DNA from: an uncultured Alphaproteobacteria bacterium | Lineage (GTDB): Bacteria; Pseudomonadota; Alphaproteobacteria; Rhizobiales; Xanthobacteraceae | Length of the DNA: 64,000 bases | Assembly: GCA_963831975.1 (NCBI GenBank) | Contig: CAWHSO010000025.1 | Location: 1,576,120 to 1,640,119, forward strand | Reading direction: 5' to 3' | In this document: in pieces, positions 389-42,916 of the stretch | Layout of the letters: every line of letters begins with the position of its first letter | How positions within the stretch are numbered: the first letter of the stretch is position 1 | Notes under the pieces: model-generated | The model's database searches: none | The model's input: the letters and a program-made list of their open reading frames with translations, nothing else | Told to the model about the DNA's origin: nothing | Program-made: the position numbers and the translations under genes

Positions 389-415
389 GTTCTCTCTTTG
401 TTCTAGGTCGCAACG

Positions 416-1282: not shown

Positions 1283-1283
1283 A

Positions 1284-2984: not shown

Positions 2985-3008
2985 GACCTATGGATGTTTG
3001 GCGTGCCT

Positions 3009-19792: not shown

Positions 19793-20095
19793 ATGAATCT
19801 TTCCAATCAAAGTCTTTTGGTCATCCTTGTGGTCGGCATCGTCGCCGGCTGGCTGGCCGGCCGGGTGATGGCCGGCGGTGGCTTTGGCCTGATCGGCGAT
19901 CTGATCGTCGGCCTGATCGGCGCCTTCATCGGCGACTGGCTGTTGCCGCAGCTCGGCGTCCATCTCGGCACCGGTATCCTTTCGCTCATATTGAACGCGT
20001 TCATCGGCGCAGTCGTGCTCTTGCTCATCCTTCGCCTGGTGAGCGGCGGCTTTCGGCCGGCGCGATGGGGCAGGCGCTGGTACGCCGCGGTCTAA
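19793..20095 (+). CDS. GlsB/YeaQ/YmgE family (transglycosylase-associated) stress membrane protein
   Basis: LVILVVGIVAGWLAGRVMAGGGFGLIGDLIVGLIGAFIGDWL is typical of the family. ATG at 19793. Confidence 0.8.
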   Translation: MNLSNQSLLVILVVGIVAGWLAGRVMAGGGFGLIGDLIVGLIGAFIGDWLLPQLGVHLGTGILSLILNAFIGAVVLLLILRLVSGGFRPARWGRRWYAAV

Positions 20096-20598
20096 TTGGC
20101 CGGCGGCCAGCCCGCCGCCGGATACGGCACGTGCATGGTCATCAGCACGATCGGCGCGCCGCCGCTCGGGATCACCTGGTGCGGGGTGTTGTAGGGGATC
20201 AGGATCATATCGCCCTTGACCACCTGGTGCGACACGCCGCCCGAGATCGATGAGCCGGTGAGATTGTTGGCGTTGACGCGCTTCTCATCGACGAGCTTGC
20301 CTTCGGTGACGATATCGCCGGTGCCTTGGAGCACGACCATCAGTTCGGCGTCGTGCTCGTGCAATGCCGCCGGCGCGTTGCCGGGGCGGTATTCGAGCTG
20401 CGCCCGGTAGGGCGCCAGCAGCAGGATGGGCTCGGCCGTCACCGGCGCGTCGCCCTTGCGGTCGGCTTTTGCCTTGTCGACCAGGGCCATGATGTCTTTA
20501 TCGCTCATGAACACCGAAGCCGGCGCCGTGGTTTGCGCCCAGGCATGAGACGCGACGGCTGTGGCAATGATCGTGAAAGCTGCGAGTTGCACACGCAT
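20092..20598 (-). CDS. Secreted cupin-domain protein
   Basis: Intact 168-aa ORF with a signal peptide (MRVQLAAFTIIATAVASHAWA) and a cupin-like HEHDAELMVVLQGTG ... GDMILIPYNTPH. Confidence 0.65.
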   Translation of the reverse strand: MRVQLAAFTIIATAVASHAWAQTTAPASVFMSDKDIMALVDKAKADRKGDAPVTAEPILLLAPYRAQLEYRPGNAPAALHEHDAELMVVLQGTGDIVTEGKLVDEKRVNANNLTGSSISGGVSHQVVKGDMILIPYNTPHQVIPSGGAPIVLMTMHVPYPAAGWPPAN

Positions 20599-20743
20599 AA
20601 AATCCTCCCGGTATTTGTTTTGTAGCGCCGCCCATGATCGGGCAGGCGGGCGCTCGACACAAGTACCGATTGTGCCGTTGCCGCTTGCGTGCGCGTCCTA
20701 GGCGACTAACATCGCCGCAGCGCCGTCCACAGAAAGTATTCCA

Positions 20744-21622
20744 ATGACCATGCCGATTACGCTCAAGGACATCACAATCCATCCCGTCATCGAGCAGCAG
20801 GGCGCGTTCTTCGACGCCATGGGATTTTTCCCGACCATAACCAAGGAGTTGCTCGACGAGAACCGCCCCTGGCTGCAGCCGGCATTCCTCGATCCGGCCG
20901 ACAAGCTGATGCTCTGCATCCAAAGCTTCGTCATCAAGACGCCGCACCACAACATCCTGGTCGATGCCTGCGTCGGCAATCACAAGCCGCGGCCGACGCG
21001 GCCGTTCTGGCACATGATGAACAGCGATCGGTTCGAGAAGGGGCTTGAGGCGGCGGGCCTCAGCGTCAACGATATCGACTACGTGATGTGCACGCACCTG
21101 CACACCGATCACGTCGGCTGGAACACCAAGCTCGAAAACGGCCGCTGGGTGCCGACCTTCCCCAAGGCGAAATACATCATGGCCGACCGCGAGCTCGAGC
21201 ACTGGACGGCGCGGCAGAAGGACAATCCCGACAGCGTGCCGTGGATCACCAACTCGGTGCTGCCGATCATCGCGGCCAAGCGCGCCCAGATCGTCAAAAG
21301 CGATTTCGTCTTCAATGAGCAGCTGCAGTTCATTCCGACGCCCGGCCACACCATCGATCATTTCTCGGTGCTGGTCGGCCGCGCCGGCGCCGACGCGCTG
21401 ATCACCGGCGATATGATTCATTCGCCGCTGCAGGGCAAATATCCCGAGCTCGGCATGATGGCCGATTACAATTCGCCGCAGGCCGGAAAAACCCGGCGCA
21501 AAGTGTTCGACCGTTTCTGCGAGGAGCCGACCATCATGTGCGCGACCCATTTTCCGGCGCCCTCGACCGGCCGGGTGCGGCGCTGGGGCGACGGCTTCAA
21601 ATTCGTCGGGGCGGCCGGTTGA
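20744..21622 (+). CDS. MBL-fold metallo-hydrolase
   Basis: Intact 292-aa ORF containing the CTHLHTDHVGW (HxHxDH) motif. Confidence 0.85.
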   Translation: MTMPITLKDITIHPVIEQQGAFFDAMGFFPTITKELLDENRPWLQPAFLDPADKLMLCIQSFVIKTPHHNILVDACVGNHKPRPTRPFWHMMNSDRFEKGLEAAGLSVNDIDYVMCTHLHTDHVGWNTKLENGRWVPTFPKAKYIMADRELEHWTARQKDNPDSVPWITNSVLPIIAAKRAQIVKSDFVFNEQLQFIPTPGHTIDHFSVLVGRAGADALITGDMIHSPLQGKYPELGMMADYNSPQAGKTRRKVFDRFCEEPTIMCATHFPAPSTGRVRRWGDGFKFVGAAG

Positions 21623-21812
21623 TATGCCGCGCGATCGTTAGCATTGGCATCGACCGGCGGTCGACGGAGCGCGTCAAGGCGTTTGCTATGTCGAGACAGC
21701 GAGGCAGAATTATTTTACGACTTTGCTCGTGGGCTGCATCAAGGATCGAGCATTGCCAGCCCCGCTATCGCGGATTTATCTTGTGGCCTGACAACCTCCG
21801 CGGGCCCACGTC

Positions 21813-24657
21813 TTGTCACGTCTCTTCATCAGCCATTCCAGCAAGGATAACGCCTCTGCAATTGCGTTCAAGCAGTGGCTGGGCAAACAACGGCTGGCCG
21901 GAAGACGATGTATTTCTCGACCTGCGAAAACATAGGCGGCAGGCGAGCGTTGGAAAGACGCGCTGCGTAAAGCGAATACGCGCTGCGAAGCTATCATTCT
22001 GCTCGTGTCGCCGGAATCGCTATCCTCGCCGGAATGTCTTGCCGAGGTGCGCAAGGCGGAGGACTACGGCAAGGAAATTATCGTCGTGCTGCTGCGCGAC
22101 ATAAAGTTCGAGGATCGGCGGCTGGATTCTACAAGGAGCGGCAGATCGTCGACCTTTCGGCGCCGCCGCAGAGCCACACTTGAGAACGGTAGACTATCGC
22201 GGGGGAGCATTTCGAAATTAAATTCAACGTCGACGCGCTCGCGAGCGTGAAGGATTATCTATTCAAGCGCGGTATCACGCCCGATCATTTTGCGTGGCCT
22301 CCCGAGGACAGGCCGGATGCAGAACCATTTCCGGGGTTGAGCGCTTTCACCGAAGGCGATGCGGGAATATTTTTTGGCCGCGACGCCGATATCGTGCGCG
22401 GTCTTGACAAGCTTCGCGTTGCTTCGCCGCGACGGCCGCCCGCGATTGCTGGTTATTCAAGCGTCCTCCGGTGCTGGCAAGTCGTCGTATCTTGCGGGCC
22501 GGCCTTTGGCCGCGGCTCGACCGCGATCCCGATTTTGCACCGCTTGCCATTGTACGGCCGGCTCAGGGCATATTGACCGGTCCGGAAGGTTTCGGCCGAA
22601 AACTCGCCGCGCGGTTGTCGCGCCCGGTTCTGCCGGTCAATGCCGGCGACATTCACGCGCAACTCATGTCCGACGACGCGGCCAAGGCCGCACGGCATCG
22701 TTCGCCAAACTGATGGCGAGCTTGCAGCCGAACAGGCGCTCGAGGAACGCCGCATCGGCGATCAAGCACGCGCGTGCGCCCGCGCTGCTTCTGGCTATCG
22801 ATCAGGCTGAGGAGCTGTTTGCGTCCGACGACGCGGAGGAAAGCCAACGCGCTCTATTTCTCCTTGCGAAGCTCATGCTGCGATCCGCCCACAGGCGTCG
22901 ATCCGTTCGCATTGCTTACGATCCGTTCTGACAACGCCGCACGGCTGTTCCAAGCCATTGCCGAAGCCGGTTTGGAGGCTCCGGAGACTTTGCCGCTATT
23001 GCCGCTGCCACAAACATCCTACCGCGATATTATCCTCAAGCCGCTCGACGTCATCGGCCGGCGCGGACAGAGTTCTGACGATTGATTCGGCGCTGACCGA
23101 GCAATTGGCTAACGGACGCGACCGGCGCGGACGCCCTGCCGTTGCTCGCGTTCACGCTTGTCGAACCTTTATCAAGAATATTCAGCGCCGGCGGCAGCAT
23201 CACGCTCGCAACAATACGATGCCATGGGCGGCGTAGCCGGCTCGATCAACATGGCGCTCAAGCGGGCGCTGAGCAAGGCCGCCGACGCTCCCGCGATTCC
23301 GGCCGCCAAGGATGACGCAGCTCGCCTGCCTGCGTGCGGCGTTTATTCCCTGGCTGGCGCGGATCGATCCCGAGAGCGGCATGCCGATGCGGCGCGTGGC
23401 ACGGCTCGAGGAATTCGCGCCGAGCGAGCGCGCCATGGTGGAGCGGTTGGTCGAGGCGCGGCTGCTCGTCGCCGACCGCCGCTCCGGAGCCGACGTCGTC
23501 GAGATTGCGCACGAAAGTCTGCTGCGCCAGTGGCCGCCGCTCACGGAATGGCTGAAGCTTGATGCCGAAAATCTCAAGTTACTTGATGCTATTGAGCGGG
23601 CCGCATCCGATTGGGTCCGGCACAGCGGCGCCGCGGCATGGCTCGACCATCGCGGCGAGCGGCTGCGTGCGGCGGAGCGATTGGCGACGCGCGCGGATTT
23701 TCGCAAGCGTCTCGGCAAACGACGGACTCGCCTATATCGAGGCCTGCCGGGCCCGGGAAGCGGCTGAGCGCAAGAGCAAGACGCTGGTGCGAATGCTGGT
23801 CGGTGGCCTCGCCGCGGCGCTGATCCTGGGCATTGCCGGCTGGAAATATCAGCGCACGCTGCAAGACGAATTTTATCGCCTGACCACCGTCGCGACACTC
23901 AGTGCGGACAAGGAAAGAGCACTCAAGCCGCACGACACGTTCCAAGAATGCGGCGATTGTCCGAAGATGACCGTGGTGCCGGCCTGGCGCGTTCAAGATG
24001 GGTTCGCCCGACAGCGATCATGTCAAGGGCGAGACGCCCCAGCACGATGTGACGATCGCGCAGCAATTCGCGGTCGGCATCTATGAAGTGACTTTCCACG
24101 AGTGGGATGCATGCGCGGCGCACGGCGGCTGCGATCCCAGTATCGGCGCCGCGGGCTGGGGACGCGACAACCGGCCGGTCATTAACGTCAGTTGGAATGA
24201 TGCTCAGATTTATGTCGCCTGGCTCAGCAAGATCACCGGTAAAACCTACCGGCTCCTGACCGAGGCACAATGGGAATACGCCGCGCGCGCGACCAAGCCG
24301 ACTTACTATTCCTTCGGCAATGACGATGGAATGCTGGACCAATTCGCCTGGTACTCCGCGAATTCACAAGCGCAGACGCATGAAGTCGGCAAAATGAAAC
24401 CCAATTTATTCGGCTTATACGACATGCATGGCAACGTCTCCGAATGGGTCGAGGATTGCCATCGCGATGGCTATCAAGGGGCCCCTACCGACGGATCGGC
24501 GTGGCGGTCGGAGGACAATTGCATTCGAAGGGTGATTCGCGGCGGTTCGTGGCTGTACGGCGCCAAGCCGCTGCGATCGGCGAGCCGCGACTGGGCGCCA
24601 CCAGACACCGGCAGAGACGATGTCGGCTTTCGCATCGCGCGGGTGCTTGCACCTTGA
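21813..24657 (+). CDS. TIR / P-loop STAND-like NTPase / TM / FGE-sulfatase (SUMF1-type) multidomain protein, heavily frame-disrupted as assembled (~948 aa reconstructed)
   Basis: TIR: (TTG)SRLFISHSSKDN ... EAIILLVSPESLSSPECLAEVRKAEDYGKEIIVVLL. Walker A LLVIQASSGAGKSSYL (~22455-22490). Walker B ALLLAIDQAEELF (~22786-22821). TM LVRMLVGGLAAALILGIAGW (~23790-23850). C-terminal FGE-sulfatase domain intact in ORF 23998-24657 (NVSWNDAQIYVAWLS ... RLLTEAQWEYAAR ... GLYDMHGNVSEWVEDC ... VIRGGSW). It requires about eight frame changes. Confidence 0.75.
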
Positions 24658-24709
24658 AGGGCCTTTTATGGCGTAGTGTTGACGTGGATTAGGGCCCCTA
24701 CATTTATCG

Positions 24710-27138
24710 CTACGATTGGCATCGAATGGGCTTGGCCAAGCGTTCCCTGGCGTAGCGGGCATGCCTGGTCAGCGGGAAACGTCGAATTAAGTCGCGCTCT
24801 ATGGTTTGCTCTTCATCGGTTTTGCACGCGGTTCGAAGAATAATCGACATCCATGAATAGGCATTATCGACCGCGTTGCCGTTCGGAAACGCGGCGAGAA
24901 GCTTTTGGAATGTTGTCCGCGCGGCCTGCGGATCCCCCATTTCTATGCCCTGCGCGTATATCTGTTCGGCCATTGCGTCGTCCAATAATTTTAAATCGGG
25001 AAATTCCCGTTGCATGGCTCCGACGACATCGACGGTCCGCTCAGGCTGGTACACCGCCATAATTCGGGCCTTCCGATAGTAAAGCAATTCGCGCAACTGG
25101 CCATGTGCCGGATTCTTTGCCGTCTTATCGAGGGTCGCGTCGATCATGTGAAGCGCCTGTCGGAGATCCCTGTGCGCAAGCACATGCGGCAGGCGATCGC
25201 CGCCGGGCCGGAAACTCGGATCGATTAACATGGAATACTTGATGATGATTGCGCGTGCGCGCTTATAAAGGACATCCGGCTGTTGCGTGCCCGCCGAGCT
25301 CAAAAAGTCCAGATACTGCGAAATTTCCTTTGAAGCCTCGTTCACATAAGGCAGTTCGACTGCATTCGAATCGACCGCTAAGTCGGGATTGAACTTCTTG
25401 ATACCCGCCGCGATACGGTCGGGATCGGTTGTCTGGGGCAGGGAGTTTGCGGGCACGTTGAGTGCATTGAGGCCGTGGGTGGCGATTTCGCCGGCCAACG
25501 CATAGTCGAAATCCCGGTACGCGGCGCGCGCTGCGACATACCAAAGCGCCGGCTGTTTGGCAAAGCCGGCGTGTGACTCACCAGCGCGTATTGCTGTCGT
25601 GCGGGATATTTGGCGAAAATTCTTATTACTTCACTTGTTGCCGCACCCGAATAGTCGCCATTGCCCACGATCATGGCCTGGGAGAAGTCCGCCATTGCTT
25701 CATCCCGCTTGCCTTGATGATGCGCCAACCAGCCCAGCATGTAGGCGGCATCATCCGCGAGTGGCATGGATAAATCCAGTGCGACAGCCTCAAAATGCGG
25801 CTTTGCGGCGGCGGCACGTGCGGCGAAATTGGGGTTGATATTGCCGAGCGGGCTATCGGCGGTAAAGATCGGGGTTGCGATTGGCGAAGCTAAGCCCCGA
25901 GGCCACGTAATATCCCGCGTCCGGAGAATTGGCCATCAGGCTTTTCAGCTCAACCACGGCGCTCGCGTCTGCACCTGGCGACAGGTGCGCGCTGATCGCG
26001 GCAACGTATTCTGGAACAGCGACCCCATGATTTTGTAACCGGCCGCATAGTGCAGGACGTTGGCGATAACCGACTTCGGATTTGCGGACAGCGCCTTTTC
26101 GAAGTCGCCGTTGATGTAGTAGGCGAATTCGATAAAGGGATCGGGCTGTTTGCTCGCTAGGAAGCTTTGGATGGCGTTGCGGACGTCCGGGTGCTCCGTC
26201 TGCGGCCCGTATTGGTCGAGGCGCGAATATATATTGGCGCCCAGCCGCAGGATCGCACCCGAAGGAATGAGCGCCCAAACGTGGGACTGCAGCTTCTTTG
26301 AAGGGAATTTTTTGAATATTGCATCCAACGCGTCGTTGGCGACTTTTGGCGACCTGTCGCGCGCCAGCACACGTGTCATGATGGCGACATCCGGCCATAG
26401 CCGGTAATCGTCCTTGGCGAGCGATTGATCTTGTTGCAGCAGCTTTTGCAGCGCGGCCTGAAATTGCCGGACGGCGAGATCGGCGGGATCGATGGCGATA
26501 TAGCGCTTGCGACCGCGACCGTTGGCGTCGAAGCTTGCCGTGTACAGGAAGCCGCGACCGCCGGTAATTCGATAGATGGGGAAGCCCTTTTTTGCCGACG
26601 TCGGCAAGTCACCGAGCGTATCGACGAGCACGCCGAGATGCGGGTCCTTGCCGTCGGCAATGTCGCTGAGGTCAGTGCCGCCAACCTCTTCGAGTTTGAC
26701 GCTGCCCCAGGTCGCAAATACGGCGTTGGGTGCTCCGTCCTGTACATTGGGCCAATTGACGTTCGCGGGCTGCTCGTTCATCTGCGACGACAAGCTCTGG
26801 ACTTCCGCCTGCACAACGCTCGTGTTCAGGGCCGCGGCCGGCGCACCCATCATGGTGTAGATTACAGTTCTGTCCTGATCATAAATGAAAGCGTTTGTGA
26901 CAGGCACGGTGGTGCCCTTGATATTCCGTTGCTGCTTCCGGTCACAACGCGTCGCATTATAAACATCGTCGGCAGGCTTGCAGCCAAACGACATATAGTT
27001 TGGGTCATCGGGAGCAACACGAGCCCCGAGCGAAAACCCATCAACGGCGTACTGAGCGGCGGTTGCGGGAGCGGGCGCCAATAGAACGACGAGCAGCGCG
27101 ATAGGTGGCAAGCAGATGTGAAATCGTGAAGCAGCCAT
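24710..27138 (-). CDS. Large (~810 aa) secreted protein of unknown function, frame-disrupted (about three shifts)
   Basis: Signal peptide MAASRFHICLPPIALLVVLLAPAPATAAQ. Contiguous coding signal runs across ORFs 25945-27138, 25853-26398 (tail), 25378-25767 and 24710-25498. Lower GC (~50-58%). No family recognised. Confidence 0.55.
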
Positions 27139-27289
27139 CGCCCAACAGCCGTCTAAAAAATAGCAAAATAATTCCTAGGAAAAATCTAGCCGAAGCGCCC
27201 GGGCCGCGGCAAGAGAATTCTTGCCACGGCGCCGGCCATCGGCCTGCCGTTCGCTGGCGACCATGGGGGTGTTCGTGGTATTGATGTTC

Positions 27290-27793
27290 ATGACTGAAAG
27301 TCACGATCACTCATCCCCAGACGAGACCGAGCGCTGGAAGCACGACGGCGTGCGCGTCATTCCGGGCAATCAGCTCGATCCCAACGTGCCGTCGACGCCG
27401 GGCATGGATCGCAAGGCCGCGATCAATTTCGCCCGCGCCGGCGCGCAAAAACTGTGGGCCGGCACGGTGACCATCAAGCCGGATGCGAAAACCGGCGCGC
27501 ACCATCACGGGCATTTGGAAAGCATCATCTATGTGGTGCGCGGCAAGGCGCGCATGCGCTGGGGCGAGCACCTGCAATTCACCGCCGAGGCCAATCCCGG
27601 CGATTTCATCTTCATCCCGCCCTATGTGCCGCATCAGGAGATCAATGCCAGCCCCGACCAGGTGCTGGAATGCGTGCTGGTGCGCAGCGACGGCGAGGCG
27701 ATCGCCATCAATCTCGACATCGAGCCGGTGGAGAAGCCGCAAACCGTGCTGTGGGTCGACCCGATTCACCGCGATGGTGCGGTGAAGACGTAA
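27290..27793 (+). CDS. Cupin-domain protein
   Basis: GAHHHGHLESIIYVVRGKARMRWGE ... GDFIFIPPYVPHQEIN, the two-motif cupin signature. An upstream alternative start at 27221 is possible. Confidence 0.75.
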   Translation: MTESHDHSSPDETERWKHDGVRVIPGNQLDPNVPSTPGMDRKAAINFARAGAQKLWAGTVTIKPDAKTGAHHHGHLESIIYVVRGKARMRWGEHLQFTAEANPGDFIFIPPYVPHQEINASPDQVLECVLVRSDGEAIAINLDIEPVEKPQTVLWVDPIHRDGAVKT

Positions 27794-27810
27794 ACGGCGC
27801 GCCGCTGCCG

Positions 27811-28668
27811 CTAAAAGCAGAGAGTGCCGACGAAGTTGCCGCGTCTGTCTTTGATGATCATGGAACATTCCAGGCGCTTGAGCGCGGCCTTGGCGTCTTC
27901 GTTGCCGAGCGCTGCGGCCTGCTCGTAATAGCCCTTGGCGGCCTTGGTGTCCTGCGGTCCGCCGCGGCCGGAGAGCACGAATGAGCCCAGCCAATCCAAC
28001 GCCTCGGCGTGGTTTTGGGCGGCGGCCTTTTCGAACATGGCCCGCGCCGCGACCTCGTCCTTCGGGCCGCCGGTGCCTTCCGCATACATCACGCCGAGCT
28101 GAAACTGCGCTTCGGCGGAATTGGCGTCCGCCGCTTTCATCAGCATCGCCCTGGCCTGGGCCGGATCCGCCGGCGGCCCGGCGGCGCCGCCGTTGGAGAG
28201 CGCGGTGAGACGGGTCACGCCGCGCGGATTGCCGGCCGCGGCGGCGCGCTCGAACAGCGTCCGCGCCTGCGCCTCGTCCTTGTCGACGCCGGAGCCCGCG
28301 GCATACAGGATGCCGAGCTCGACCATGGCCGCGGAGCTGCCTTTGTCGATCGCCTTGCGATAGGCGGCGATCGCGTCGGGCAATTGCCCGTTGGCGGCGT
28401 AGGCGCGGCCGAGCTGAAACAGCGCCCGGCGCGACGACGGCGCCGCGATCTTGCAGAATTTGATCGCGGTGGCGACGTCGGACGGCGCGATGTCGGCTGC
28501 GCCTTTGACGTCCGCCGGCTTGTCGGGATCGGTGGGATCGGCGGCGAGCCGGTCGCACAGCACCAGATCGGCCGATTGCGCGCGGGCGGGCGACTGCGCA
28601 GCCGTCAGCGCAAGCGCCGAAAGCGCGAACACGCAAGCGATCGAAGCACCGCCGGATCGTTTCGTCAT
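27811..28668 (-). CDS. Sel1-repeat (TPR-like) secreted protein
   Basis: Intact 285-aa ORF with a signal peptide and repeated units of the form A..L G.MY..G.GV..D...A..WFEKAA. Confidence 0.85.
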   Translation of the reverse strand: MTKRSGGASIACVFALSALALTAAQSPARAQSADLVLCDRLAADPTDPDKPADVKGAADIAPSDVATAIKFCKIAAPSSRRALFQLGRAYAANGQLPDAIAAYRKAIDKGSSAAMVELGILYAAGSGVDKDEAQARTLFERAAAAGNPRGVTRLTALSNGGAAGPPADPAQARAMLMKAADANSAEAQFQLGVMYAEGTGGPKDEVAARAMFEKAAAQNHAEALDWLGSFVLSGRGGPQDTKAAKGYYEQAAALGNEDAKAALKRLECSMIIKDRRGNFVGTLCF

Positions 28669-28719
28669 GGCGCCGATTTTATCACGATCCCGGCCGGGCG
28701 CGCACCGTGGGCGCGCGCA

Positions 28720-29541
28720 TCAAACCGGCTTTTCGCCGAGGATGGTCAATCGCCGCATCAGGCGGCGTTCGGCGGCGCTGAAGTCGGTCCGGGCGTGGAG
28801 CGTGCAGCGGTTGTCCCACATCAAAAGGTCGTGCGGCCGCCAGATATGCTCGTAGATGAATTGCGGCTGCTCCTGATGATCGAACAGCGCGTTGAGAAGG
28901 GCCTCGCCTTCGGCATCCGGCAGTCCTTCGATGGCGACGGTCATCAGCCGGTTGACATAGAGCGCCTTTCGCCCGGTGGCCGGATGGGTCCGCACGATGG
29001 GATGCCAGTACGACGGAATGCCGTCGCGCGGCTTGGTGCCGCGCTTCATCGAGGCGTTGTCATAGTCGTAGGCATTGAGCGCGTTGCGGCCTTCGATGCT
29101 CTTTTTCATCGCCGCGGGCAGCGTTTCGTAGGCGAGATAGGCGTTGGCGAACAGCGTGTTGCCGCCCGTGCGCGGAATTTCCAGCGCATAGAGCATCGAC
29201 GCCATCGCCGGCCGCTCCTGATGGCATTGGTCGGTGTGAAAGTGCATCTCGCCGTCGGGTAGCGCGCCGATCAGCTTGCCGTTTTCGCGGATGTTGGAAA
29301 TCAGCATCACCGCCGGGTTCTTGGTCGTGTAGCGCCGCGTGTGGCTCACCGCGGGCGGCCCAAAGCGCTCGCCGAAGCGGACCTGGTCGTCTTCGGTGAG
29401 ATGTTGATCGCGGAACAGGATCACGAGATTGCGGTGCCAACAGTCGAGCACCTTGGCGAAAGTTTCATCGCTCATCGGCGCGCTGAGATCGACGCCGATG
29501 ATTTCGGCGCCGATTGCCGGCGCCAGCGCACGCGTGCGCAA
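28720..29541 (-). CDS. TauD/TfdA family Fe(II)/2-oxoglutarate dioxygenase
   Basis: Intact 273-aa ORF. IGAEIIGVDLS ... MHFHTDQCH (HxD) ... WDNRCTLHAR. Confidence 0.85.
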   Translation of the reverse strand: MRTRALAPAIGAEIIGVDLSAPMSDETFAKVLDCWHRNLVILFRDQHLTEDDQVRFGERFGPPAVSHTRRYTTKNPAVMLISNIRENGKLIGALPDGEMHFHTDQCHQERPAMASMLYALEIPRTGGNTLFANAYLAYETLPAAMKKSIEGRNALNAYDYDNASMKRGTKPRDGIPSYWHPIVRTHPATGRKALYVNRLMTVAIEGLPDAEGEALLNALFDHQEQPQFIYEHIWRPHDLLMWDNRCTLHARTDFSAAERRLMRRLTILGEKPV

Positions 29542-29632
29542 GTTGCGATGGTCGTTGCGACACCTCGAACGCTTGCGTGCTCATGGCCATCTCCCTGTTA
29601 TTTTTCATCAGGTAGCATATCGAGCGACGCCG

Positions 29633-30660
29633 TCACTCTGTCAACTTGATGTTCGCCGCCTTGACGACTTGCGGCCACATCGCGCGCTCCTCGCGGATGG
29701 TGCGCATCATCTCGTCGGTGCCGCCATCCAATGTCGAGAGCGCCGATGTCCGGTACCAGGCGCGGATATCGGCGTCCGCCAGCGCCTGCGCGATGGCGTC
29801 GCGGAATTTCGCCACGATCGGCTCGGGCGTGCCGGCCGGCGCCATGACGCCCCAGATATTGGTCGAGGTAAAACCCGGAAAACCGGATTCGGCGATCGTC
29901 GGCACGTCCGGCAATTGCGGCAACCGGTTCGGCGAGCCGACGGCCAAAATCTTGAGCTGCCCGGCATTGGCCTGGGTCAGCGCCTGGGTCACGCCGAAGA
30001 ACATCACGTCGACCTGGCCGCTGATGAGATCGGGCGTCGCTTCGCCGGTGCCTTTGTACGGCACGTGCACCAGGTCGAAGCCGCCCTGCATCTTGAGCAT
30101 CTCCATGAACAACTGGTGCGTGCTGCCGACGCCGGTCGATGCGTAGGTGAATTTGCCGGGCTCGGCCTTGGCCAGCGCCACCAGCTCTCGCAGATTATTG
30201 GCTTTGAGATTCCGGTTGGCGACAATGACATTGATGATGCGCGCGAGCGGCGCCACCGGCGTGAAATCGCGATCCATGTCGTAGGACAAATTCGGGTAAA
30301 GCGCCGGCGAGACCGCGAACTGGATGTCGCTTGCCGACACGAACGTATAGCCGTCGGGCGCCGCATCCTTCGCCGCTTTCATGCCGATATTGCCATTGGC
30401 GCCGGGCCGGTTGTCGACAAAGAACGGGGCGCCGAGTTTCTGGCTGAGGAACAGCGCCACCTTCCGCGAGATGAGATCGCCGCTGGTGGCCGGCGGATAC
30501 GGCATGATCAGCCGCACCGGGCTGGTCGGGCCAAGATGTTGGCGCCACTGCTGTTTGCGCCAACGAGGGCGTCGGCGGCAACGAACGCCAGGATGAACCC
30601 AGCACCAGCCGGCGCCAGCTCCGCATTGCTATCTCCCAACCCATCGCGATACGCCGACAT
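29633..30660 (-). CDS. Bug family (TctC-like) tripartite tricarboxylate transporter substrate-binding protein, one frameshift
   Basis: PVRLIMPYPPATSGDLISRKVALFLSQKLGAPFFVDNRPGANGNIG. The N-terminal signal region is in another frame, with the shift near 30530. Confidence 0.8.
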
Positions 30661-30957
30661 CACGTTAGCACGTCTGGCCGCCGGCTGCGGTAGGACATTG
30701 GATAAAACTATCGGCCGATATAAACGAACCATAACCGAAGCGGCTCGCGGTGCGACATTCGAACACGGTGCCTATCGGCCGGATGCGCGATTAATAGAGC
30801 AGGGGCGGCCATGGAGGATGACAACATGGCTGTCGATATGGCGCTTTGGGCCTTCTTGCCGCAATGGCGGCATTTCTCGCTTCGGCTGCAAGGTGACGTG
30901 GGAAGATCAACGGCAGCGTGAGCGCGATATCGCGCCGCGGCGATTAGCGTGCGGCCG

Positions 30958-32475
30958 CTACTGCCCGCGCCGCACCGCGCTGGCGAAACGCTTGGCTTCT
31001 TCGGCGGCGCGGAATAGCGCCTTCGCCTTGTTGATGCATTCCTGCTGCTCGAATTGCGGATCGGAATCGGCGACGATGCCGGCGCCGGCCTGCACATACA
31101 TGGTGCCGTCCTTGATCAGCGCGGTGCGCAGCACGATGCAGGTGTCCATGTCGGCGCCGGCGGAGAAATAGCCGACGCAGCCGGCATAGAGCGAGCGCTT
31201 CTCCTTCTCCAATTCGTCGATGATCTGCATGGCGCGCACCTTTGGCGCGCCCGACACCGTGCCGGCGGGAAAGCCCGCGGCCAGCGCGTCGAGCGCGTCG
31301 CGGTCGCGGCGCAGCTTGCCCTCGACATTGGAGACGATGTGCATCACCTGGCTGTAGCGCTCGATGAAGAACTGGTCGGTGACGGTGACGGAGCCGATCT
31401 CGGCGACGCGGCCGACGTCGTTCCGGCCGAGATCGAGCAGCATGAGATGCTCGGCGCGTTCCTTCGGGTCGGCGAGCAGTTCCGCTTCGAGCGCCTGGTC
31501 TTCGTGCGGCGTGGCGCCGCGCGGCCGCGTGCCGGCGATGGGGCGGATGGTGACGATACCGTCGCGCGCCTTGACCATCAGCTCGGGGCTCGATCCGGCG
31601 ATGGCGAAGCTGCCGAATTCGAGAAAGAACAGATAGGGCGACGGATTGACCCGGCGCAGCGCGCGGTAAAGCGCGAACGGCGGCAGCGCAAACGGCGCCT
31701 CGAAACGCTGCGACAGCACCACCTGAAAAATATCGCCGGCGGCGATGTAGTCCTTGGCGCGCAGCACCATGGCTTTGAATTCGGCCGGCGTGGTGTTCGA
31801 GCGCGGCGCGACGTCGAGCGGGCCCAGGTCGATGTCCGCCGCCGATTTGTCGAGCGGCCGGTCGAGCGCATCGACCACGGCGGAGAGGCGTTCGACCGCG
31901 CGCGCGAGCGCGGCCTTCGCCGACAGGCCGGCTTGCGGCCGCACCGGCGAGACCACGGTGATGGTGTCTTTGACGGCATCGAACGCGATCACCAGCGTCG
32001 GGCGCACCAGCATGGCGTCCGGGATGCCGATCGGGTCGGGCGCCTGCGCCGGCAATTCCTCGATCAGCCGCACCATGTCGTAGCCGAGATAGCCGAACAC
32101 GCCGGCCGCCATGGGCGGCAGGTCGTCGGGCAGCGCGATGCGGCTTTCGGCGATGAAGGCGCGCAACGCCTGCAGCGGCGGCTCGGCCATCGGCGCGAAC
32201 GCCGCCGGGTCGCTCGCCGGCGCGCGGTTGAGCTCGGCGCGCTCGCCATCGACGCGGAAGATCATGTCGGGCTCGAGCCCGATGATCGAATAGCGGCCGC
32301 GCACCGCGCCGCCTTCGACCAATTCCAGCAAAAAGCTCATCGGCCGGGAGCCGGCGATTTTCAGGAAGGCGGAGACCGGCGTTTCCAGGTCCGCGACCAG
32401 CGTCGTCCACACCACCTGCGGCTCGCCGGCCTCATAGCGCGCGGCGAAATTTTCCGCCGAAGGCTCGATCTGCAT
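30958..32475 (-). CDS. trpE: Anthranilate synthase component I
   Basis: Intact 505-aa ORF. LLELVEGG ... FQVVLSQRF ... NPSPYLFFLEF ... GAPKVRAMQIIDELE ... GGAVGYF-like GCVGYFSAGADMDTCIVLRT. Confidence 0.95.
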   Translation of the reverse strand: MQIEPSAENFAARYEAGEPQVVWTTLVADLETPVSAFLKIAGSRPMSFLLELVEGGAVRGRYSIIGLEPDMIFRVDGERAELNRAPASDPAAFAPMAEPPLQALRAFIAESRIALPDDLPPMAAGVFGYLGYDMVRLIEELPAQAPDPIGIPDAMLVRPTLVIAFDAVKDTITVVSPVRPQAGLSAKAALARAVERLSAVVDALDRPLDKSAADIDLGPLDVAPRSNTTPAEFKAMVLRAKDYIAAGDIFQVVLSQRFEAPFALPPFALYRALRRVNPSPYLFFLEFGSFAIAGSSPELMVKARDGIVTIRPIAGTRPRGATPHEDQALEAELLADPKERAEHLMLLDLGRNDVGRVAEIGSVTVTDQFFIERYSQVMHIVSNVEGKLRRDRDALDALAAGFPAGTVSGAPKVRAMQIIDELEKEKRSLYAGCVGYFSAGADMDTCIVLRTALIKDGTMYVQAGAGIVADSDPQFEQQECINKAKALFRAAEEAKRFASAVRRGQ

Positions 32476-34398
32476 TCAATTGGTATCCGGCGCGCTGTTG
32501 CCCAAGGCTTGCTGGAGCGCCGACTGGTTGACGCTGGTGCCGAGATCGCTCTCCAGCCACGCCATGTACTGGCCGAACACGTCGTCGCCGATTTGGCGCG
32601 ATGACCATCTCGTCGAGCTGCTTGGCCGTTCGGTGAGTTGGCGTCGAGGCTCGGCGTTTTGACGTCGGTCACCCGGAACACGGTCCATTGCGTCGGCTTG
32701 TCGCCCTCGGCGCTGGCATAGGCATCCAAGGCGGTGTGGAAGATGGCGTCGATCATCCGCGCCGAAATCGTCTCCGGCGGCTTGCTGCGGGTGATGCCGG
32801 TCGCGGTTTCGACTTTGACGCCGTTGGCCGCGGCCATGGCCTCGAGCGTGCCGCCGTTTTTCAGCTTGTCGAGGATGTCGGCCGCCTTGGCCTTCAGCCG
32901 CGAGGCGATCTCGTCGTCGCGCCACTGCTGCCTCGACCTGGCTTTTCACCTCGTCGAGATTGCGCTCGCGCGCCGGCGTGATGCCGGTCGACGTCGTACC
33001 AGATATAGCCGCCATCGGCCTCGAGCGGATCGTTGTCGACGCCGACATCGGTCGCGAACGCGGCGTTGACCACTTCGGCGGCGTGGGGAAGGTTTTCGAT
33101 CGGCTTGCCGTCGGGGCCGCGGCCGGAGCGGTCGATGGCGTCGTAGGTGACGACCGGCAGCTTCAGTTTCTGCGCCGCTTCCTCGAGCGAGGCGCCGCCG
33201 GCGCGGGCGTCCTCGATCTTGTCGTGGATGTCCTGGACGACTTTCTTGACGCGCGCCAAGGCGATCTCGTTGCGGATCTGCGGCGCCACGTCGGCGAAGG
33301 TTTTGCCTTCCTCGGGGATGATCTGCGACACGGTGACGATGACCACGCCGAAGCTGGCCTTGCACCGGCGCGCTCACTTCGCCGTCCTTGAGCGAAAAGG
33401 CGGCATCCGCCACGGCCGGATCGATGATGGTGGATTTCGGCACCGTGCCGAGATCGAGGTCCTGCTCCTTGAGCCCGCGCTCGGCCGCGAGCGCCGAGAA
33501 CGTCAGGCCGCCCTTGATGCGCGTCGCTGGCGGCTTGCGCCTCGGCCATGGTGGGAAACGGCATCTGCTCGATGTGGCGGCGCTCCGGCGTGATGTAGCG
33601 GTTGCGGTAGGTGTCAAAAATCCGTTTGACGTCCTCGTCCGGGACCTCGGCGGTCTTGGCGAGCTCCGCCGGCGTCGCCACCACGGCCGCGATTTTGCGG
33701 AATTCCGGCGCGCGGAACAGGATTTTGCGCGCATCGAAATATTTGCTGAGCTGCTTCCGCGGTCGGCGGCGCAATGTCGCCGGCTTGCGCCGGACCGAGC
33801 GCCAAATAGGCGATGCTGCGCTGCTTGGTTCTGAAACTGATTAAGCGCGTCGAGCCAGGCGCTCGGCAGCGGGATATTGCCCGAGACCGAATCGATGATC
33901 TGCCGGCGTAAGCGTCAGGTTGCGCTGCTCGGCGACGAAGCGCTTCTCGTTGAAGCCGGCATTGCGCATCGCGTCTTCGAACCGGGCGCGGTCGAACTGG
34001 CCTTGCTGGTTCTGGAACGACGGATTGGTAACGATGCGCTGCGAGATTTCGGCATCGGAAACGCCAAGCCGCATTTGCCGCGCGCGCTCGTTCAAGCCGG
34101 CCTCGGCGACCATCTCGCTCAAGACCTGCCGCGGCACGCCGCGGGCCATGGCTTCCTCCGGCGTGACCACGTGGCCGGACTGCCGGCTGAGCATCTGCAC
34201 CGCATCGTTGTAGGTCTGCCGGAACTGCTCGATCGGGATTTCGACGCCGCCGATCTTGGCGACCGTCGAGCGGCCGAAGCCGCGAAAGATGTCGTTGATG
34301 CCCCAGACCGCGAAACTGCCGGCCAAAAGCGTCATCACCACACCCATGACGATGCGGCCGAGCCAATTCGCGGAGGCTTTGCGGATACCTCGAAGCAT
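32476..34398 (-). CDS. ppiD: Periplasmic chaperone / peptidyl-prolyl isomerase PpiD-like protein, frame-disrupted (about five shifts)
   Basis: N-terminus MLRGIRKASANWLGRIVMGVVMTLLAGSFAVWGINDIF (membrane anchor + SurA_N). Later segments are recoverable from ORFs 33163-33774, 32894-33346 and 32476-33048. The stop abuts the trpE start. Confidence 0.7.
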
Positions 34399-34593
34399 TA
34401 CGTCCCACGCTCTGGAGTGGTTTGCTTAAAGCCCATGGTCAGGCGCTTCCCTAAACCTTGGGCCAAAGGCGGCGCATCATAAGGAGCGTTGCGCTGCACC
34501 GCAACCGATGGAATTTGCAGATAAAGCGCCCCTTTTCCGCCTGCAACTGGTCTGCTAACGGCTCTTTGTCGCAGGATTTTTTAGGCCGAATCG

Positions 34594-40658: not shown

Positions 40659-40670
40659 GGGGAGGCGGAC

Positions 40671-42446: not shown

Positions 42447-42494
42447 AGCATGATCCCGAAAAGTGGAAACCGGTTTTCGGGAAAGATCATGCTC
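42446..42494. repeat. Palindromic intergenic element (gagcatgatcccgaaaa ... ttttcgggaaagatcatgctc)
   Basis: Imperfect hairpin between the GMC gene and the cytochrome c gene. It translates to the typical spurious DPEKWKPVFGKDHAQ peptide. Confidence 0.6.
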
Positions 42495-42521
42495 AAACAA
42501 AAAAATCTCTTGGGGGGAATC

Positions 42522-42901: not shown

Positions 42902-42916
42902 CGCGCGCGGGCGGTG

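What the first reader, a model, noticed from the sequence alone, without database searches (positions are those of the whole stretch)
21813..24657. TIR / STAND-like NTPase / TM / FGE-sulfatase fusion: a candidate single-gene conflict (anti-phage or NADase signalling) system
One long plus-strand coding signal joins four modules.
- An N-terminal TIR domain (FISHSS ... SPESLSSPECLAEV, the position of the catalytic Glu in bacterial TIR NADases).
- A P-loop NTPase with Walker A SGAGKSS and a STAND-type Walker B LLLAIDQAEELF, followed by a helical/wHTH-like region.
- One TM helix.
- An intact C-terminal formylglycine-generating-enzyme/SUMF1-type domain.

Effector + STAND switch + ligand-binding sensor is the logic of Avs/NLR-like immunity. 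FGE-sulfatase (FGS) domains have been proposed in comparative-genomics work as variable ligand sensors in such systems. As far as I know, no member with this architecture has been tested experimentally.

The gene sits in a lower-GC segment (about 21.65-27.2 kb) between ordinary metabolic genes. A second TIR protein lies in the same window.
Basis: partly seen in the sequence, partly recalled or inferred. Interest (0 to 1): 0.8.

Follow-up and report, generated by a model that had tools for sequence, protein, structure and literature searches.

The report
Membrane TIR-STAND receptor with partner gene
The region encodes a membrane-spanning, immune-receptor-like protein (a predicted NAD-cleaving TIR domain and an ATPase switch inside the cell, a lectin-fold sensor outside) of a family known only from computer predictions; this copy is scrambled by about 21 probable sequencing errors and always sits next to a previously unremarked secreted partner gene.

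Summary
Window 21813-24657 (+) carries the coding signal of a 940-aa TIR_2 / nSTAND1 / single-TM / FGE-sulfatase-fold protein. All three domains have strong Pfam support.

There is no intact ORF. Compared with an intact syntenic orthologue, the copy has 20 small insertions and 1 deletion. The same kind of indel also breaks pyrG, kdsA, a ppiD-like gene and others in the window. Independent assemblies of close relatives are either intact or broken at other positions. Assembly error is therefore far more likely than gene decay.

The architecture is already described in silico (Kaur et al. 2021; Doré et al. 2023; a 2026 STAND survey). I found no report of an experimental test.

- The "FGE" domain is PvdO-like, has no Cys where FGE enzymes carry their catalytic pair, and is predicted to be periplasmic.
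- The system is not single-gene. A conserved ~809-aa secreted alpha/beta + TPR-solenoid partner (24710-27138, -) accompanies this clade at different genomic sites and in distant phyla, and it co-varies with the sensor domain.
- The neighbourhoods show no defence-island enrichment.

Most likely function: a trans-envelope STAND/TIR sensor that triggers NAD+ cleavage. This is inferred, not shown.

The parts
21813..24657 (+). Gene for a 940-aa TIR-nSTAND1-TM-FGS protein. In this record it is interrupted by 21 indels (20 insertions, 1 deletion).
   Evidence: The orthologue P0001/L001 is intact. TTG start at 21813.
21813..22220 (+). Cytoplasmic N-terminal TIR domain. The putative catalytic Glu (E77) is codon 22044-22046.
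   Evidence: Pfam TIR_2 1.1e-13. Weak PADLOC hits to SAVED_TIR, SpbK and ThsB. E77 is invariant in 45/45 family members. The AF2 model shows a flavodoxin-like beta-alpha pattern.
22295..23630 (+). nSTAND1 P-loop NTPase with helical and winged-helix-like parts. Walker A is at 22467-22487 and Walker B at 22785-22820.
   Evidence: Pfam PF20703 6.4e-55. G218, G220, K221, S222, D326, Q327, E329 and E330 are invariant. Foldseek aligns the TIR plus NTPase part to plant TNL RPP1 (7dfv_B) over 639 columns, with low TM-scores.
23784..23840 (+). Single transmembrane helix (LVRMLVGGLAAALILGIAG). Predicted topology: N-terminus in the cytoplasm, C-terminus outside.
   Evidence: Kyte-Doolittle mean 2.07 over 19 aa. 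An equivalent segment is present in all 70 listed relatives checked, with more K/R on the N-terminal flank. It is also present in 12 further relatives, including the DGR-linked ones.
23949..24657 (+). Periplasmic PvdO-like FGE-sulfatase-fold (FGS / C-type-lectin fold) domain, starting at a CxDCP motif. No Cys after GGSW.
   Evidence: Pfam PF03781 4.6e-52. PvdO 5hha: E 8.5e-52, TM-score 0.83, 42% identity. Genuine FGE enzymes score only about 1e-12. C706, C709, C760 and C766 are invariant.
24710..27138 (-). Conserved convergent partner gene. Intact homologues are ~809 aa: signal peptide, a ~190-aa alpha/beta domain and a ~590-aa TPR-like alpha-solenoid. Here it is split into 3 ORFs by 3 indels (25579, 25861, 25999).
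   Evidence: AF2 pLDDT 89.4, pTM 0.81. No Pfam or PADLOC family. Its divergence tracks that of the FGS domain, r=0.93.
21650..27200 (.). Two-gene cassette with lower GC (59.6% against 63.3% for the window), sitting between an MBL-fold gene and a cupin gene.
   Evidence: The same gene pair is found between unrelated flanking genes in L002, L003, L004, L085, L086 and L087.

Best explanation
**What it is.** The locus is a two-gene cassette.

- **Gene A (21813-24657, +)** encodes a type-II single-pass membrane protein. The TIR domain and the nSTAND1 ATPase are in the cytoplasm. After one TM helix, a non-catalytic PvdO-like FGE-fold (FGS / C-type-lectin fold) domain lies in the periplasm.
- **Gene B (24710-27138, -)** encodes a secreted ~809-aa protein with an alpha/beta domain followed by a TPR-like solenoid.

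**Proposed mechanism (inferred).** The periplasmic FGS domain, alone or through the TPR partner, binds an extracytoplasmic cue such as a phage- or competitor-derived molecule or an envelope-damage product. Ligand-driven clustering passes through the TM helix and licenses ATP-dependent oligomerisation of nSTAND1. Juxtaposed TIR domains then form NAD+-cleaving sites around Glu77. The result is NAD+ depletion or a nucleotide signal, followed by growth arrest or death.

**Shown here.** Domain identities, invariant catalytic and P-loop residues, a conserved TM segment with charge bias, conserved adjacency of the partner, and co-variation of the partner with the FGS domain.

**Inferred.** Ligand, signalling, NADase activity and biological role.

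**State of the gene.** The 21 frameshifts in this record are most probably errors of a metagenome assembly, so the organism most likely has an intact gene.
For: **Architecture.**

**Family.** At least 69 intact ~940-aa proteins share the three domains. More than 578 related stretches occur in species-representative genomes, mostly alphaproteobacterial MAGs.

**Topology.**. The closest solved relative, PvdO, is described as a periplasmic pyoverdine-maturation enzyme (PMC9305348).

**Partner.**
- It is adjacent in L001-L007, L016, L019 and L075 (convergent), in L073 (Blastopirellula, divergent) and in L074 (a deltaproteobacterium, tandem).
- All 3 look-ups that started from partner homologues again found the TIR-nSTAND1-FGE gene next door.
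- Flanking genes differ between loci.
- Relatives whose N-terminal part is 62-71% identical to P0001 but which carry WD40 or a divergent FGS domain at the C-terminus lack the partner.
- Partner distances correlate with FGS-domain distances at r=0.93 and with TIR-nSTAND1 distances at r=0.72. The partial correlations are 0.885 and 0.46.
- Between the window and L001, dS is 0.006 for the FGS part and 0.0035 for the partner, against 0.065-0.14 in the flanks.

**Frameshifts are artefacts.**
- 33 of about 37 coding indels between window 19.8 and 34.7 kb are insertions.
- There are no in-frame stops, and dN/dS is 0.29.
- All window indels are private. L089, another assembly, has different private deletions. 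P0001 and P0213 are intact.
- L087 and L088 show one locus fragmented differently in two assemblies.
- pyrG and kdsA, which are essential in most Gram-negative bacteria, and thiO/thiG and a ppiD-like gene are also frameshifted.

**Literature.** PMC8195603 section 7 describes TIR / nSTAND1 / FGS combinations as predicted counter-invader sensors.
Against: - No member has been tested in any paper I found.
- PADLOC has no model for the NTPase, the sensor or the partner.
- Of 96 neighbouring ORFs at 12 partner-positive loci, only a few gave isolated, generic PADLOC hits: patatin, AAA, cyclase, OmpA/MotB. Guilt by association with defence islands is therefore absent.
- No relatives were found in IMG/VR.
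- The two genes are convergent, so they are not co-transcribed.
- Co-variation of the partner with the FGS domain could come from physical linkage alone.
- The topology rests on the positive-inside rule, not on experiment.
- Real pseudogenisation cannot be excluded without the reads.
Confidence: 0.6

Rival explanations
1. The gene, and its partner, are genuine decaying pseudogenes in this organism. The frameshifts are real mutations and the locus is non-functional here.
For: - The public record itself carries the broken frame. P0214, a 219-aa gene call identical to window ORF 23998-24657, is on record from a 2.07-Mb contig.
- The indels cluster: 21 lie in 2.1 kb.
- The cassette looks horizontally acquired because of its low GC, and such cargo is often lost.
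Against: - There are 21 indels but only about 48 substitutions, no in-frame stop, and dN/dS of 0.29.
- The 20:1 excess of insertions is the opposite of the deletion bias known for bacterial pseudogenes (established knowledge).
- The same type of indel hits pyrG, kdsA, thiG and a ppiD-like gene.
- None of the indels is shared with the close relatives L001 and L089.
Confidence: 0.15
2. The protein is a trans-envelope signalling or housekeeping receptor rather than an immune system. Examples would be sensing a small molecule such as a siderophore, envelope state, or kin and community signals. The TIR domain would then act as a regulated NAD+-derived signal generator or as a scaffold.
For: - Flanking genes are overwhelmingly metabolic, and no defence-island enrichment is seen.
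- The closest solved relative of the sensor is PvdO, a periplasmic siderophore-maturation protein (PMC9305348).
- Sister proteins carry CHASE2, a classic extracellular small-molecule sensor domain, in the same position.
- The partner resembles periplasmic TPR scaffolds such as CpoB/YbgF, below threshold.
Against: - The combination of TIR, STAND and swappable C-terminal sensors (WD40, TPR, caspase, CHASE2, FGS) is the signature of conflict systems.
- More distant TIR-nSTAND1-FGS relatives sit next to DGR reverse transcriptase and Avd genes.
- The cassette occupies different genomic sites. It lies next to an integrase in L086 and next to patatin, ThsB_TIR and a D12 methylase in L087.
- The partner's N-terminal domain is also fused to exported caspases.
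Confidence: 0.2
3. The C-terminal domain is an active FGE/PvdO-type oxidative enzyme, so the protein is primarily a periplasmic modifying enzyme.
For: There is strong similarity to PvdO, which NCBIfam names dihydropyoverdine dehydrogenase (197 bits).
Against: - The NCBIfam PvdO score of 197 is far below the 500-bit cutoff.
- There is no Cys in the 34 residues after GGSW, where FGE enzymes have the Cu-binding Cys pair (sequence; FGE residue positions recalled from memory).
- The window holds no pyoverdine or sulfatase genes near the locus.
- Fusion to TIR and a STAND ATPase is unexplained by an enzyme role.
Confidence: 0.04
4. It is a DGR-diversified antigen receptor like the nSTAND1/NACHT-CLec targets described in Thiohalocapsa.
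For: Relatives at about 44-48% identity (L013, L014, L015, L017, L022, L024, L055) have a DGR-type reverse transcriptase, and five of them also an Avd-like gene nearby. The published descriptions are in 10.1101/2023.09.22.558884 and PMC8195603.
Against: - The window has no template-repeat-like copy of the gene's 3' end.
- No RT or Avd gene lies within about 6 kb in any partner-positive locus.
- The FGS domain is the most conserved part against the nearest relative: 1 amino-acid difference in 250.
Confidence: 0.02

Closest known systems
STAND NTPase-FGS counter-invader systems (Kaur, Iyer, Burroughs, Aravind 2021, eLife; PMC8195603)
   Same: The domain grammar is the same: an N-terminal effector (TIR is listed explicitly), a central nSTAND1 NTPase and a C-terminal FGS (PF03781) domain proposed as the invader-binding sensor.
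   Different: - That work treats FGS as an intracellular sensor, often DGR-diversified and often paired with EAD adaptors.
- Here every member checked has a TM helix before the FGS domain.
- The FGS domain here is PvdO-like and conserved.
- There is no DGR and no EAD.
- A dedicated secreted TPR-solenoid partner is present. I did not find it described in the text passages I retrieved from that paper.
DGR-targeted STAND (nSTAND1/NACHT)-CLec proteins of Thiohalocapsa and relatives (Doré et al. 2023, 10.1101/2023.09.22.558884)
   Same: The architecture is nSTAND1 plus a C-terminal FGE/CLec fold. Some have N-terminal TIR or peptidase domains. Some CLec domains are predicted to be periplasmic.
   Different: This clade shows no reverse transcriptase, no template repeat and no hypervariable C-terminus. 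More distant TIR-nSTAND1-FGS relatives (L013 and others) do have an RT and Avd.
Experimentally shown anti-phage STANDs (Avs1-5, bNACHT; the 2026 STAND survey PMC13581612)
   Same: They share the tripartite effector / STAND ATPase / sensor logic. The 2026 survey lists FGE-sulfatase-like sensors among defence-associated STANDs.
   Different: - The tested systems are cytoplasmic and sense phage proteins with TPR-like sensors.
- There is no PADLOC hit to Avs or bNACHT models.
- The sensor here is on the other side of the membrane.
Plant TIR-NLRs (RPP1, ROQ1)
   Same: They have an N-terminal TIR with the catalytic Glu in the S..S.[W/E]CL.E[L/V] motif, followed by a STAND ATPase. Foldseek aligns 639 columns to the RPP1 tetramer core.
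   Different: The NTPase clade differs (NB-ARC against nSTAND1). Plant TNLs have soluble LRR sensors, no TM helix and no lectin-fold sensor. The motif alignment to plant TIR is from memory.
PvdO (Pseudomonas, PDB 5hha)
   Same: It is the best sequence and structure match for the C-terminal domain: 42% identity and TM-score 0.83. It shares the CxDCP start motif and belongs to the periplasmic pyoverdine-maturation proteins.
   Different: PvdO is a stand-alone ~280-aa periplasmic protein in pyoverdine maturation. The NCBIfam score here is 197 against a cutoff of 500, so this domain is not an orthologue.
Animal Toll-like receptors (analogy only)
   Same: They have an extracytoplasmic ligand-binding domain, one TM helix and a cytoplasmic TIR.
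   Different: The polarity is opposite (TIR at the N-terminus). An ATPase switch is inserted. The sensor is a lectin fold rather than LRR. Any homology is limited to the TIR domain.

Membership tests
TIR domain NADases (Pfam TIR_2, PF13676) | Match to the family HMM above the curated cutoff | tested here: met
   52.2 bits against a cutoff of 28, E 1.1e-13. Precomputed PF13676 is listed on all close homologues.
TIR domain NADases (Pfam TIR_2, PF13676) | Conserved catalytic Glu at the start of helix alphaC | tested here: met
   E77, in the motif SPECLAEV, is invariant in 45/45 family members. Its equivalence to the plant and bacterial catalytic Glu is by motif alignment from memory.
TIR domain NADases (Pfam TIR_2, PF13676) | NAD+ hydrolase or cyclase activity | not testable with these tools
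   This needs a biochemical assay of P0001 and an E77A mutant.
nSTAND1 NTPases (PF20703) | Match to the family HMM above the cutoff across its full length | tested here: met
   187.7 bits against a cutoff of 27.1. Profile positions 1-375 of 379 are covered.
nSTAND1 NTPases (PF20703) | Intact Walker A and Walker B motifs | tested here: met
   S217, G218, G220, K221, S222, S223 and D326, Q327, E329, E330 are invariant. They are present in the window at 22467-22487 and 22785-22820.
Formylglycine-generating enzymes (FGE/SUMF1) | FGE-sulfatase fold (PF03781) | tested here: met
   177.7 bits against a cutoff of 23.3. Foldseek matches FGE structures with target-normalised TM-scores of 0.61-0.67.
Formylglycine-generating enzymes (FGE/SUMF1) | Catalytic, copper-binding Cys pair just after the GGS[YW] motif | tested here: not met
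   The sequence after GGSW is LYGAKPLRSASRDWAPPDTGRDDVGFRIARVLAP, with no Cys. No Cys is conserved C-terminal to C896 in the family. The Cys positions in FGE are recalled from memory. The closest solved relatives are PvdO, TvpA and PorK, which are not FGEs.
PvdO (NCBIfam NF051459, dihydropyoverdine dehydrogenase) | Equivalog score above the cutoff | tested here: not met
   196.6 bits against a cutoff of 500. The domain is PvdO-like but not an orthologue.
STAND-FGS conflict systems (Kaur et al. 2021) | Effector (TIR) + nSTAND1/NACHT/MNS NTPase + C-terminal FGS in one polypeptide | tested here: met
   The description is in PMC8195603 section 7.
STAND-FGS conflict systems (Kaur et al. 2021) | Association with a diversity-generating retroelement (frequent, not obligatory) | tested here: not met
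   The window has no template-repeat-like sequence. No RT or Avd gene lies near the partner-positive loci. Both are present next to more distant relatives: an RT in L013, L014, L015, L017, L022, L024 and L055, and Avd in five of these.
Known anti-phage systems (PADLOC-DB v2: Avs, bNACHT, Thoeris and others) | Match to a system-specific model beyond a shared domain | tested here: not met
   Only TIR-domain-level hits were found: SAVED_TIR 3.7e-8, SpbK and ThsB. There was nothing for the NTPase, the FGS domain or the partner.
Known anti-phage systems (PADLOC-DB v2: Avs, bNACHT, Thoeris and others) | Location in defence islands | tested here: not met
   96 neighbouring ORFs at 12 loci gave only isolated generic hits. 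Two of the contexts surveyed have mobile or defence flavour (L086, and L087/L088).
Two-gene cassette proposed here (TIR-nSTAND1-TM-FGS + secreted TPR partner) | Partner homologue directly adjacent | tested here: met
   Window 24710-27138 (-) is 89-95% identical to P0124. Adjacency holds in 12 loci from the TIR-side search and in all 3 look-ups from the partner side.
Two-gene cassette proposed here (TIR-nSTAND1-TM-FGS + secreted TPR partner) | Physical or functional interaction between the partner and the FGS domain | not testable with these tools
   Only indirect evidence is available: co-variation at r=0.93, and presence that tracks the type of FGS domain.

The most novel reading that the evidence does not exclude
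The cassette is a bacterial trans-envelope NLR. A STAND/TIR immune receptor would have its sensing surface, a PvdO-like lectin-fold domain working with a dedicated secreted TPR-solenoid co-receptor, in the periplasm. It would detect an attacker such as a phage tail or ejection protein, a bacteriocin or T6SS effector, or envelope damage before or as it crosses the inner membrane. It would then trigger NAD+ cleavage inside the cell. The sensor module (FGS + partner) would be exchanged horizontally as a unit, independently of the TIR-ATPase module.
Probability: 0.3. Interest if true: 0.75.

Novelty: new variant of a known kind. Interest (0 to 1): 0.45.

Why it matters
All bacterial STAND/NLR-like immune receptors characterised so far, to my knowledge, sense their triggers in the cytoplasm. 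This family is abundant in soil Alphaproteobacteria. It would put the sensor outside the inner membrane and add a separate secreted co-factor.

If the mechanism holds, it links NLR-type switching with TLR-like trans-membrane sensing in bacteria. It also gives a defined two-gene unit (P0001 + P0124) for asking three questions:
- what FGS/lectin-fold sensors recognise;
- how a single-pass helix can license STAND oligomerisation;
- whether sensor modules are swapped as cassettes.

For genome scanning there is a practical lesson. The multi-frame signal here is a symptom of assembly quality, not of biology.

Tried and rejected
- **Look-ups by exact product** for window proteins (the MBL-fold gene at 20744-21622 and P0214) found no contig on record. 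The source record could therefore not be read. Only the cluster table shows that P0214 comes from a 2,067,418-bp NCBI/ENA contig.
- **A family-specific TIR HMM** on the six-frame translation found no second TIR. A simple motif search did.
- **A phmmer search of the TIR domain against PDB sequences** gave nothing. Only the fold search linked the TIR and NTPase part to a plant TNL.
- **Partner identification.** Pfam, NCBIfam, PADLOC and PDB sequence searches gave only sub-threshold TPR, YfiO, YbgF and CpoB hits. Foldseek gave only generic TPR solenoids with TM-scores of 0.3 or less. No enzymatic fold was recognised.
- **The promoter and terminator scan** of 21.5-27.4 kb was no better than shuffled sequence.
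- **Search for a DGR template repeat** of the 3' end within the window was negative.
- **The viral contig scan** was negative.
- **My first attempt to translate a repaired partner** was out of frame. I replaced it with BLAST to intact homologues.
- **Considered and rejected:** programmed frameshifting or phase variation (21 sites, not at homopolymers or repeats), and an active FGE enzyme (no Cys pair).
Full report

Between 21813 and 24657 on the + strand there is no long ORF. The plausible coding signal switches among the three frames about 17 times. I stitched the pieces into a 940-aa product, which matched three Pfam families far above their curated cutoffs:
- TIR_2, residues 3-112, 52 bits against 28.
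- nSTAND1 (PF20703), residues 159-597, 188 bits against 27.
- FGE-sulfatase (PF03781), residues 709-936, 178 bits against 23.

The quoted motifs are all there. In an alignment of 45 family members the TIR Glu (E77), the Walker A residues (G218, G220, K221, S222) and the Walker B residues (D326, Q327, E329, E330) are invariant.

**2. Why is the frame broken?**

A protein search found many intact ~940-aa proteins with the same three domains. The best is P0001. Its metagenome contig (L001) is syntenic with window 19837-34665 at 97.1% DNA identity.

Base-by-base alignment shows 21 indel events in the gene between 21889 and 23981. Twenty are insertions (23 bases) and one is a deletion. The net +22 matches the length difference exactly.

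After the indels are removed:
- there are no in-frame stops;
- 23 codon differences are synonymous and 21 non-synonymous;
- dN/dS is 0.29.

A gene that had drifted long enough to collect 21 real indels should show far more substitutions and some nonsense codons. Bacterial pseudogenes also accumulate deletions rather than insertions (established knowledge).

The same kind of single-base insertion breaks other genes in this stretch:
- the neighbouring partner gene (3 indels);
- a TauD-like gene (1 indel);
- a TctC-like gene (3 indels);
- a PpiD-like gene (9 insertions).

A GC3-phase segmentation shows dense phase switching in many other parts of the window: 40-43, 48-53.4, 56.9-58.9 and 59.6-63.6 kb. 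Among the affected genes are pyrG (CTP synthase), split over three frame segments, and kdsA, thiO and thiG.

In a three-way alignment with a second close assembly (L089), every window indel is private. L089 has its own 15 private deleted bases at other positions. The 90% cluster of P0001 contains two intact copies (P0001, P0213) and two fragmented ones, the window and L089. Another locus (L087/L088) is fragmented differently in two assemblies.

The 219-aa ORF at 23998-24657 is identical to P0214. That gene call is on record from a 2,067,418-bp NCBI/ENA contig, so the errors are in the public record. I conclude, at about 0.8 confidence, that the frameshifts are assembly errors of a metagenome-derived genome and that the organism has an intact gene. 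I could not read the source record. The inference that these are long-read assemblies rests only on contig and MAG naming and on my memory.

**3. What the protein is**

*Overall model.* AlphaFold2 with the family alignment gives a confident model: pLDDT 85.3. It shows, in order:
- a flavodoxin-like TIR domain;
- a P-loop NTPase with helical and winged-helix-like parts;
- a very long helix (621-671) that contains the hydrophobic segment;
- a compact C-terminal domain.

*Fold matches.* Foldseek matches the C-terminal domain best to PvdO (5hha, target TM-score 0.83, 42% identity), then to Treponema TvpA, then to FGE enzymes at TM-scores of about 0.6. The TIR and NTPase part aligns to the plant TIR-NLR RPP1 over 639 columns, with low TM-scores.

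*The C-terminal domain is not an FGE enzyme.* By sequence, PvdO scores E 8.5e-52 and genuine FGEs about 1e-12. The NCBIfam PvdO equivalog scores 197 bits against a cutoff of 500. After the GGSW motif, where FGE enzymes carry their two catalytic Cys (from memory), this family has LYGAKPLRSASRDW... with no Cys. The domain is therefore a non-catalytic, PvdO-like FGS/C-type-lectin-fold module.

*Topology.* A hydrophobic 19-mer (Kyte-Doolittle mean 1.6-2.9) lies at the same position in all 70 listed relatives checked. Its N-terminal flank has more K/R (3-8) than its C-terminal flank (0-4). The same holds in 12 further relatives, including the DGR-linked ones and those from distant phyla. By the positive-inside rule the TIR and ATPase are cytoplasmic and the FGS domain is periplasmic. 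Two further points are consistent with this:
- four invariant and two near-invariant Cys in the FGS domain, including a CxDCP motif shared with PvdO;
- PvdO's role among the periplasmic pyoverdine-maturation enzymes (PMC9305348).

**4. A conserved partner gene**

*Adjacency.* In L001-L004 the gene is followed tail-to-tail, within 20-55 bp, by a ~800-aa ORF with no Pfam family. The flanking genes differ in every locus. In the window this gene is 24710-27138 (-). It is split into 262-, 129- and 397-aa ORFs by three indels. It is 89-95% identical to the intact 809-aa P0124.

Among 80 loci from species-representative genomes, the partner is:
- adjacent in the clade closest to the window (L005-L007, L016, L019, L075);
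- divergent in a Blastopirellula MAG (L073);
- in tandem upstream in a deltaproteobacterial MAG (L074).

It is absent from two groups:
- relatives with only 39-48% overall identity to the query;
- relatives whose TIR-nSTAND1 part is close (62-71% identity) but whose C-terminus is WD40 or a divergent FGS domain (L008-L012, L018, L025, L038, L076).

*Family size.* The word-indexed search found only 91 clusters. Three look-ups that started from partner homologues all found a TIR-nSTAND1-FGE gene convergent next door.

*Co-variation.* Across 11 loci, partner divergence tracks FGS-domain divergence (r=0.93; 0.965 within Alphaproteobacteria) much better than TIR-nSTAND1 divergence (r=0.72; 0.515). 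The partial correlations are 0.885 and 0.46. Between the window and L001, dS is 0.006 in the FGS part and 0.0035 in the partner, against 0.048 in the TIR-nSTAND1 part and 0.065-0.14 in the flanks. The FGS domain and the partner thus behave as one recently exchanged module. Physical linkage alone could produce this pattern, so it is suggestive rather than conclusive.

*Partner structure.* The partner has a Sec-type signal peptide (MAASRFHI.LPPIALLVVLLAPAPATA|AQ). Its AF2 model is confident (pLDDT 89.4, pTM 0.81). It shows a ~190-aa alpha/beta domain followed by a ~590-aa TPR-like solenoid. Fold matches are only generic solenoids, some of them periplasmic scaffolds.

*The N-terminal domain elsewhere.* A profile search of 1.84 billion cluster representatives shows that the N-terminal domain recurs in many other proteins. 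In the ten I scanned it is joined to caspase domains, TPR, Sel1 or SHOCT. The two caspase fusions I read have signal-peptide-like N-termini. No Pfam model covers this domain.

**5. Context**

- The cassette has lower GC: 59.6% against 63.3% for the window.
- It sits at different genomic sites in different genomes. In L086 it is next to a phage-type integrase. In L087/L088 it is next to patatin, TPR-S, ThsB_TIR and a D12 methylase.
- Most flanks are metabolic. Of 96 neighbouring ORFs at 12 loci, only a few gave isolated, generic PADLOC hits.
- PADLOC has no model for the protein beyond weak TIR hits.
- No relatives occur in IMG/VR.
- More distant TIR-nSTAND1-TM-FGS relatives (L013, L014, L015, L017, L022, L024, L055) are flanked by a DGR-type reverse transcriptase, and five of them by an Avd-like gene. 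This matches published descriptions. The window has no template-repeat-like copy of the gene's 3' end.

**6. Comparison with what is known**

- Kaur et al. 2021 (PMC8195603, section 7) explicitly describe STAND NTPase-FGS proteins. They list TIR among the N-terminal effectors and define nSTAND1 as one of the central NTPases. They propose FGS as a directly invader-binding, often DGR-diversified sensor.
- Doré et al. 2023 describe nSTAND1/NACHT-CLec DGR targets. Some of these have N-terminal TIR and some have periplasmic CLec domains. The authors state that STAND proteins with CLec domains have not been examined experimentally.
- A 2026 survey lists FGE-sulfatase-like sensors among defence-associated STANDs.

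The architecture is therefore a known, predicted kind. What I did not find described is the sub-variant seen here: a universally TM-anchored, PvdO-like, conserved (non-DGR) sensor with a dedicated secreted TPR-solenoid partner. My literature check was limited to the held library and a few term searches.

**7. Mechanism and verdict**

*Most likely mechanism* (confidence about 0.6 for the overall picture):
1. A periplasmic cue is bound by the FGS domain, by the partner, or by both.
2. Clustering is transmitted through the TM helix.
3. nSTAND1 oligomerises in an ATP-dependent way.
4. TIR domains assemble into NAD+-cleaving sites.
5. NAD+ is depleted or a nucleotide signal is made, and the cell arrests or dies.

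Only the anatomy, the conservation, the topology prediction and the partner linkage are shown here. Ligand, activity and role are inferred.

*Rivals:*
- a true pseudogene (0.15);
- a non-immune trans-envelope signalling receptor (0.2);
- an active PvdO/FGE-type enzyme (0.04);
- a DGR-diversified receptor (0.02).

The finding is a well-observed member of a predicted but untested family, with a modestly new two-gene, periplasm-facing twist. Interest is moderate (0.45).

Noticed in passing
window 40000-43000, 46858-53800, 56900-58900, 59600-63600, 32600-34400: Many genes besides the TIR gene are frameshifted. pyrG is split over three frame segments (46858-47502, 47088-48395, 48247-48612). kdsA, thiO and thiG are fragmented. 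A PpiD-like gene carries 9 single-base insertions. This points to an error-rich assembly rather than to biology.
   Followed up: partly
It has an N-terminal TIR (KYRAFLSYSHVD...), one TM helix (IVVVAVIALLAILGGGLFW), and then hundreds of residues of ~42-aa TPR-like repeats (SDPGNAGWQRDLSVSYNKIGDVQ...). It is also frameshifted. It is another cytoplasmic-TIR / TM / extracytoplasmic-repeat design, without a STAND ATPase.
   Followed up: partly
window 1-3440: This is the lowest-GC stretch of the window (57%). By eye it holds a TcmP-like gene (416-1282) followed by a Gp37/Gp68 (DUF5131)-like gene (1284-2192), plus an unknown 308-aa ORF on the - strand (2058-2984). It is probably a small mobile island.
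   Followed up: no
window 23980-27200 vs L001 4115-7340: The FGS-coding 3' end and the whole partner gene are almost identical between the window genome and L001 (dS 0.006 and 0.0035). The flanks are at dS 0.065-0.14 and the TIR-nSTAND1 part at 0.048. This suggests recent exchange of the sensor module, or a strain-chimeric consensus.
   Followed up: partly
L013, L014, L015, L017, L022, L024, L055: TIR-nSTAND1-TM-FGS relatives at about 44-48% identity are flanked by a ~375-aa DGR-type reverse transcriptase, and five of them also by a ~196-aa Avd-like four-helix protein. Their FGS domain also follows a TM helix, so these diversified sensors would face the periplasm.
   Followed up: partly
P0341, P0293 and about 100 other proteins: The partner's N-terminal ~200-aa alpha/beta domain (motif Y.VDG..LG.R ... 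C.P ... C) has no Pfam model. It recurs in many other proteins, joined in those scanned to caspase (Peptidase_C14), TPR, Sel1 or SHOCT modules. The two caspase fusions I read have signal-peptide-like N-termini. It is an undescribed periplasmic domain of the conflict-system vocabulary.
   Followed up: partly
L087 and L088 (ERZ25039473 and ERZ25039496): The same nSTAND1-FGE gene next to an identical partner (P0182) is called as 375+488 aa in one assembly and as 499+203+155 aa in the other. This illustrates assembly-specific fragmentation. The locus also carries patatin, TPR-S, ThsB_TIR and a D12 methylase.
   Followed up: no
one search hits P0070-P0119: The same TIR-nSTAND1 core (60-69% identity) is fused to WD40 propellers, CHASE2, TPR or a caspase domain in place of TM-FGS. 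This shows modular swapping of the C-terminal sensor within one NTPase clade.
   Followed up: no
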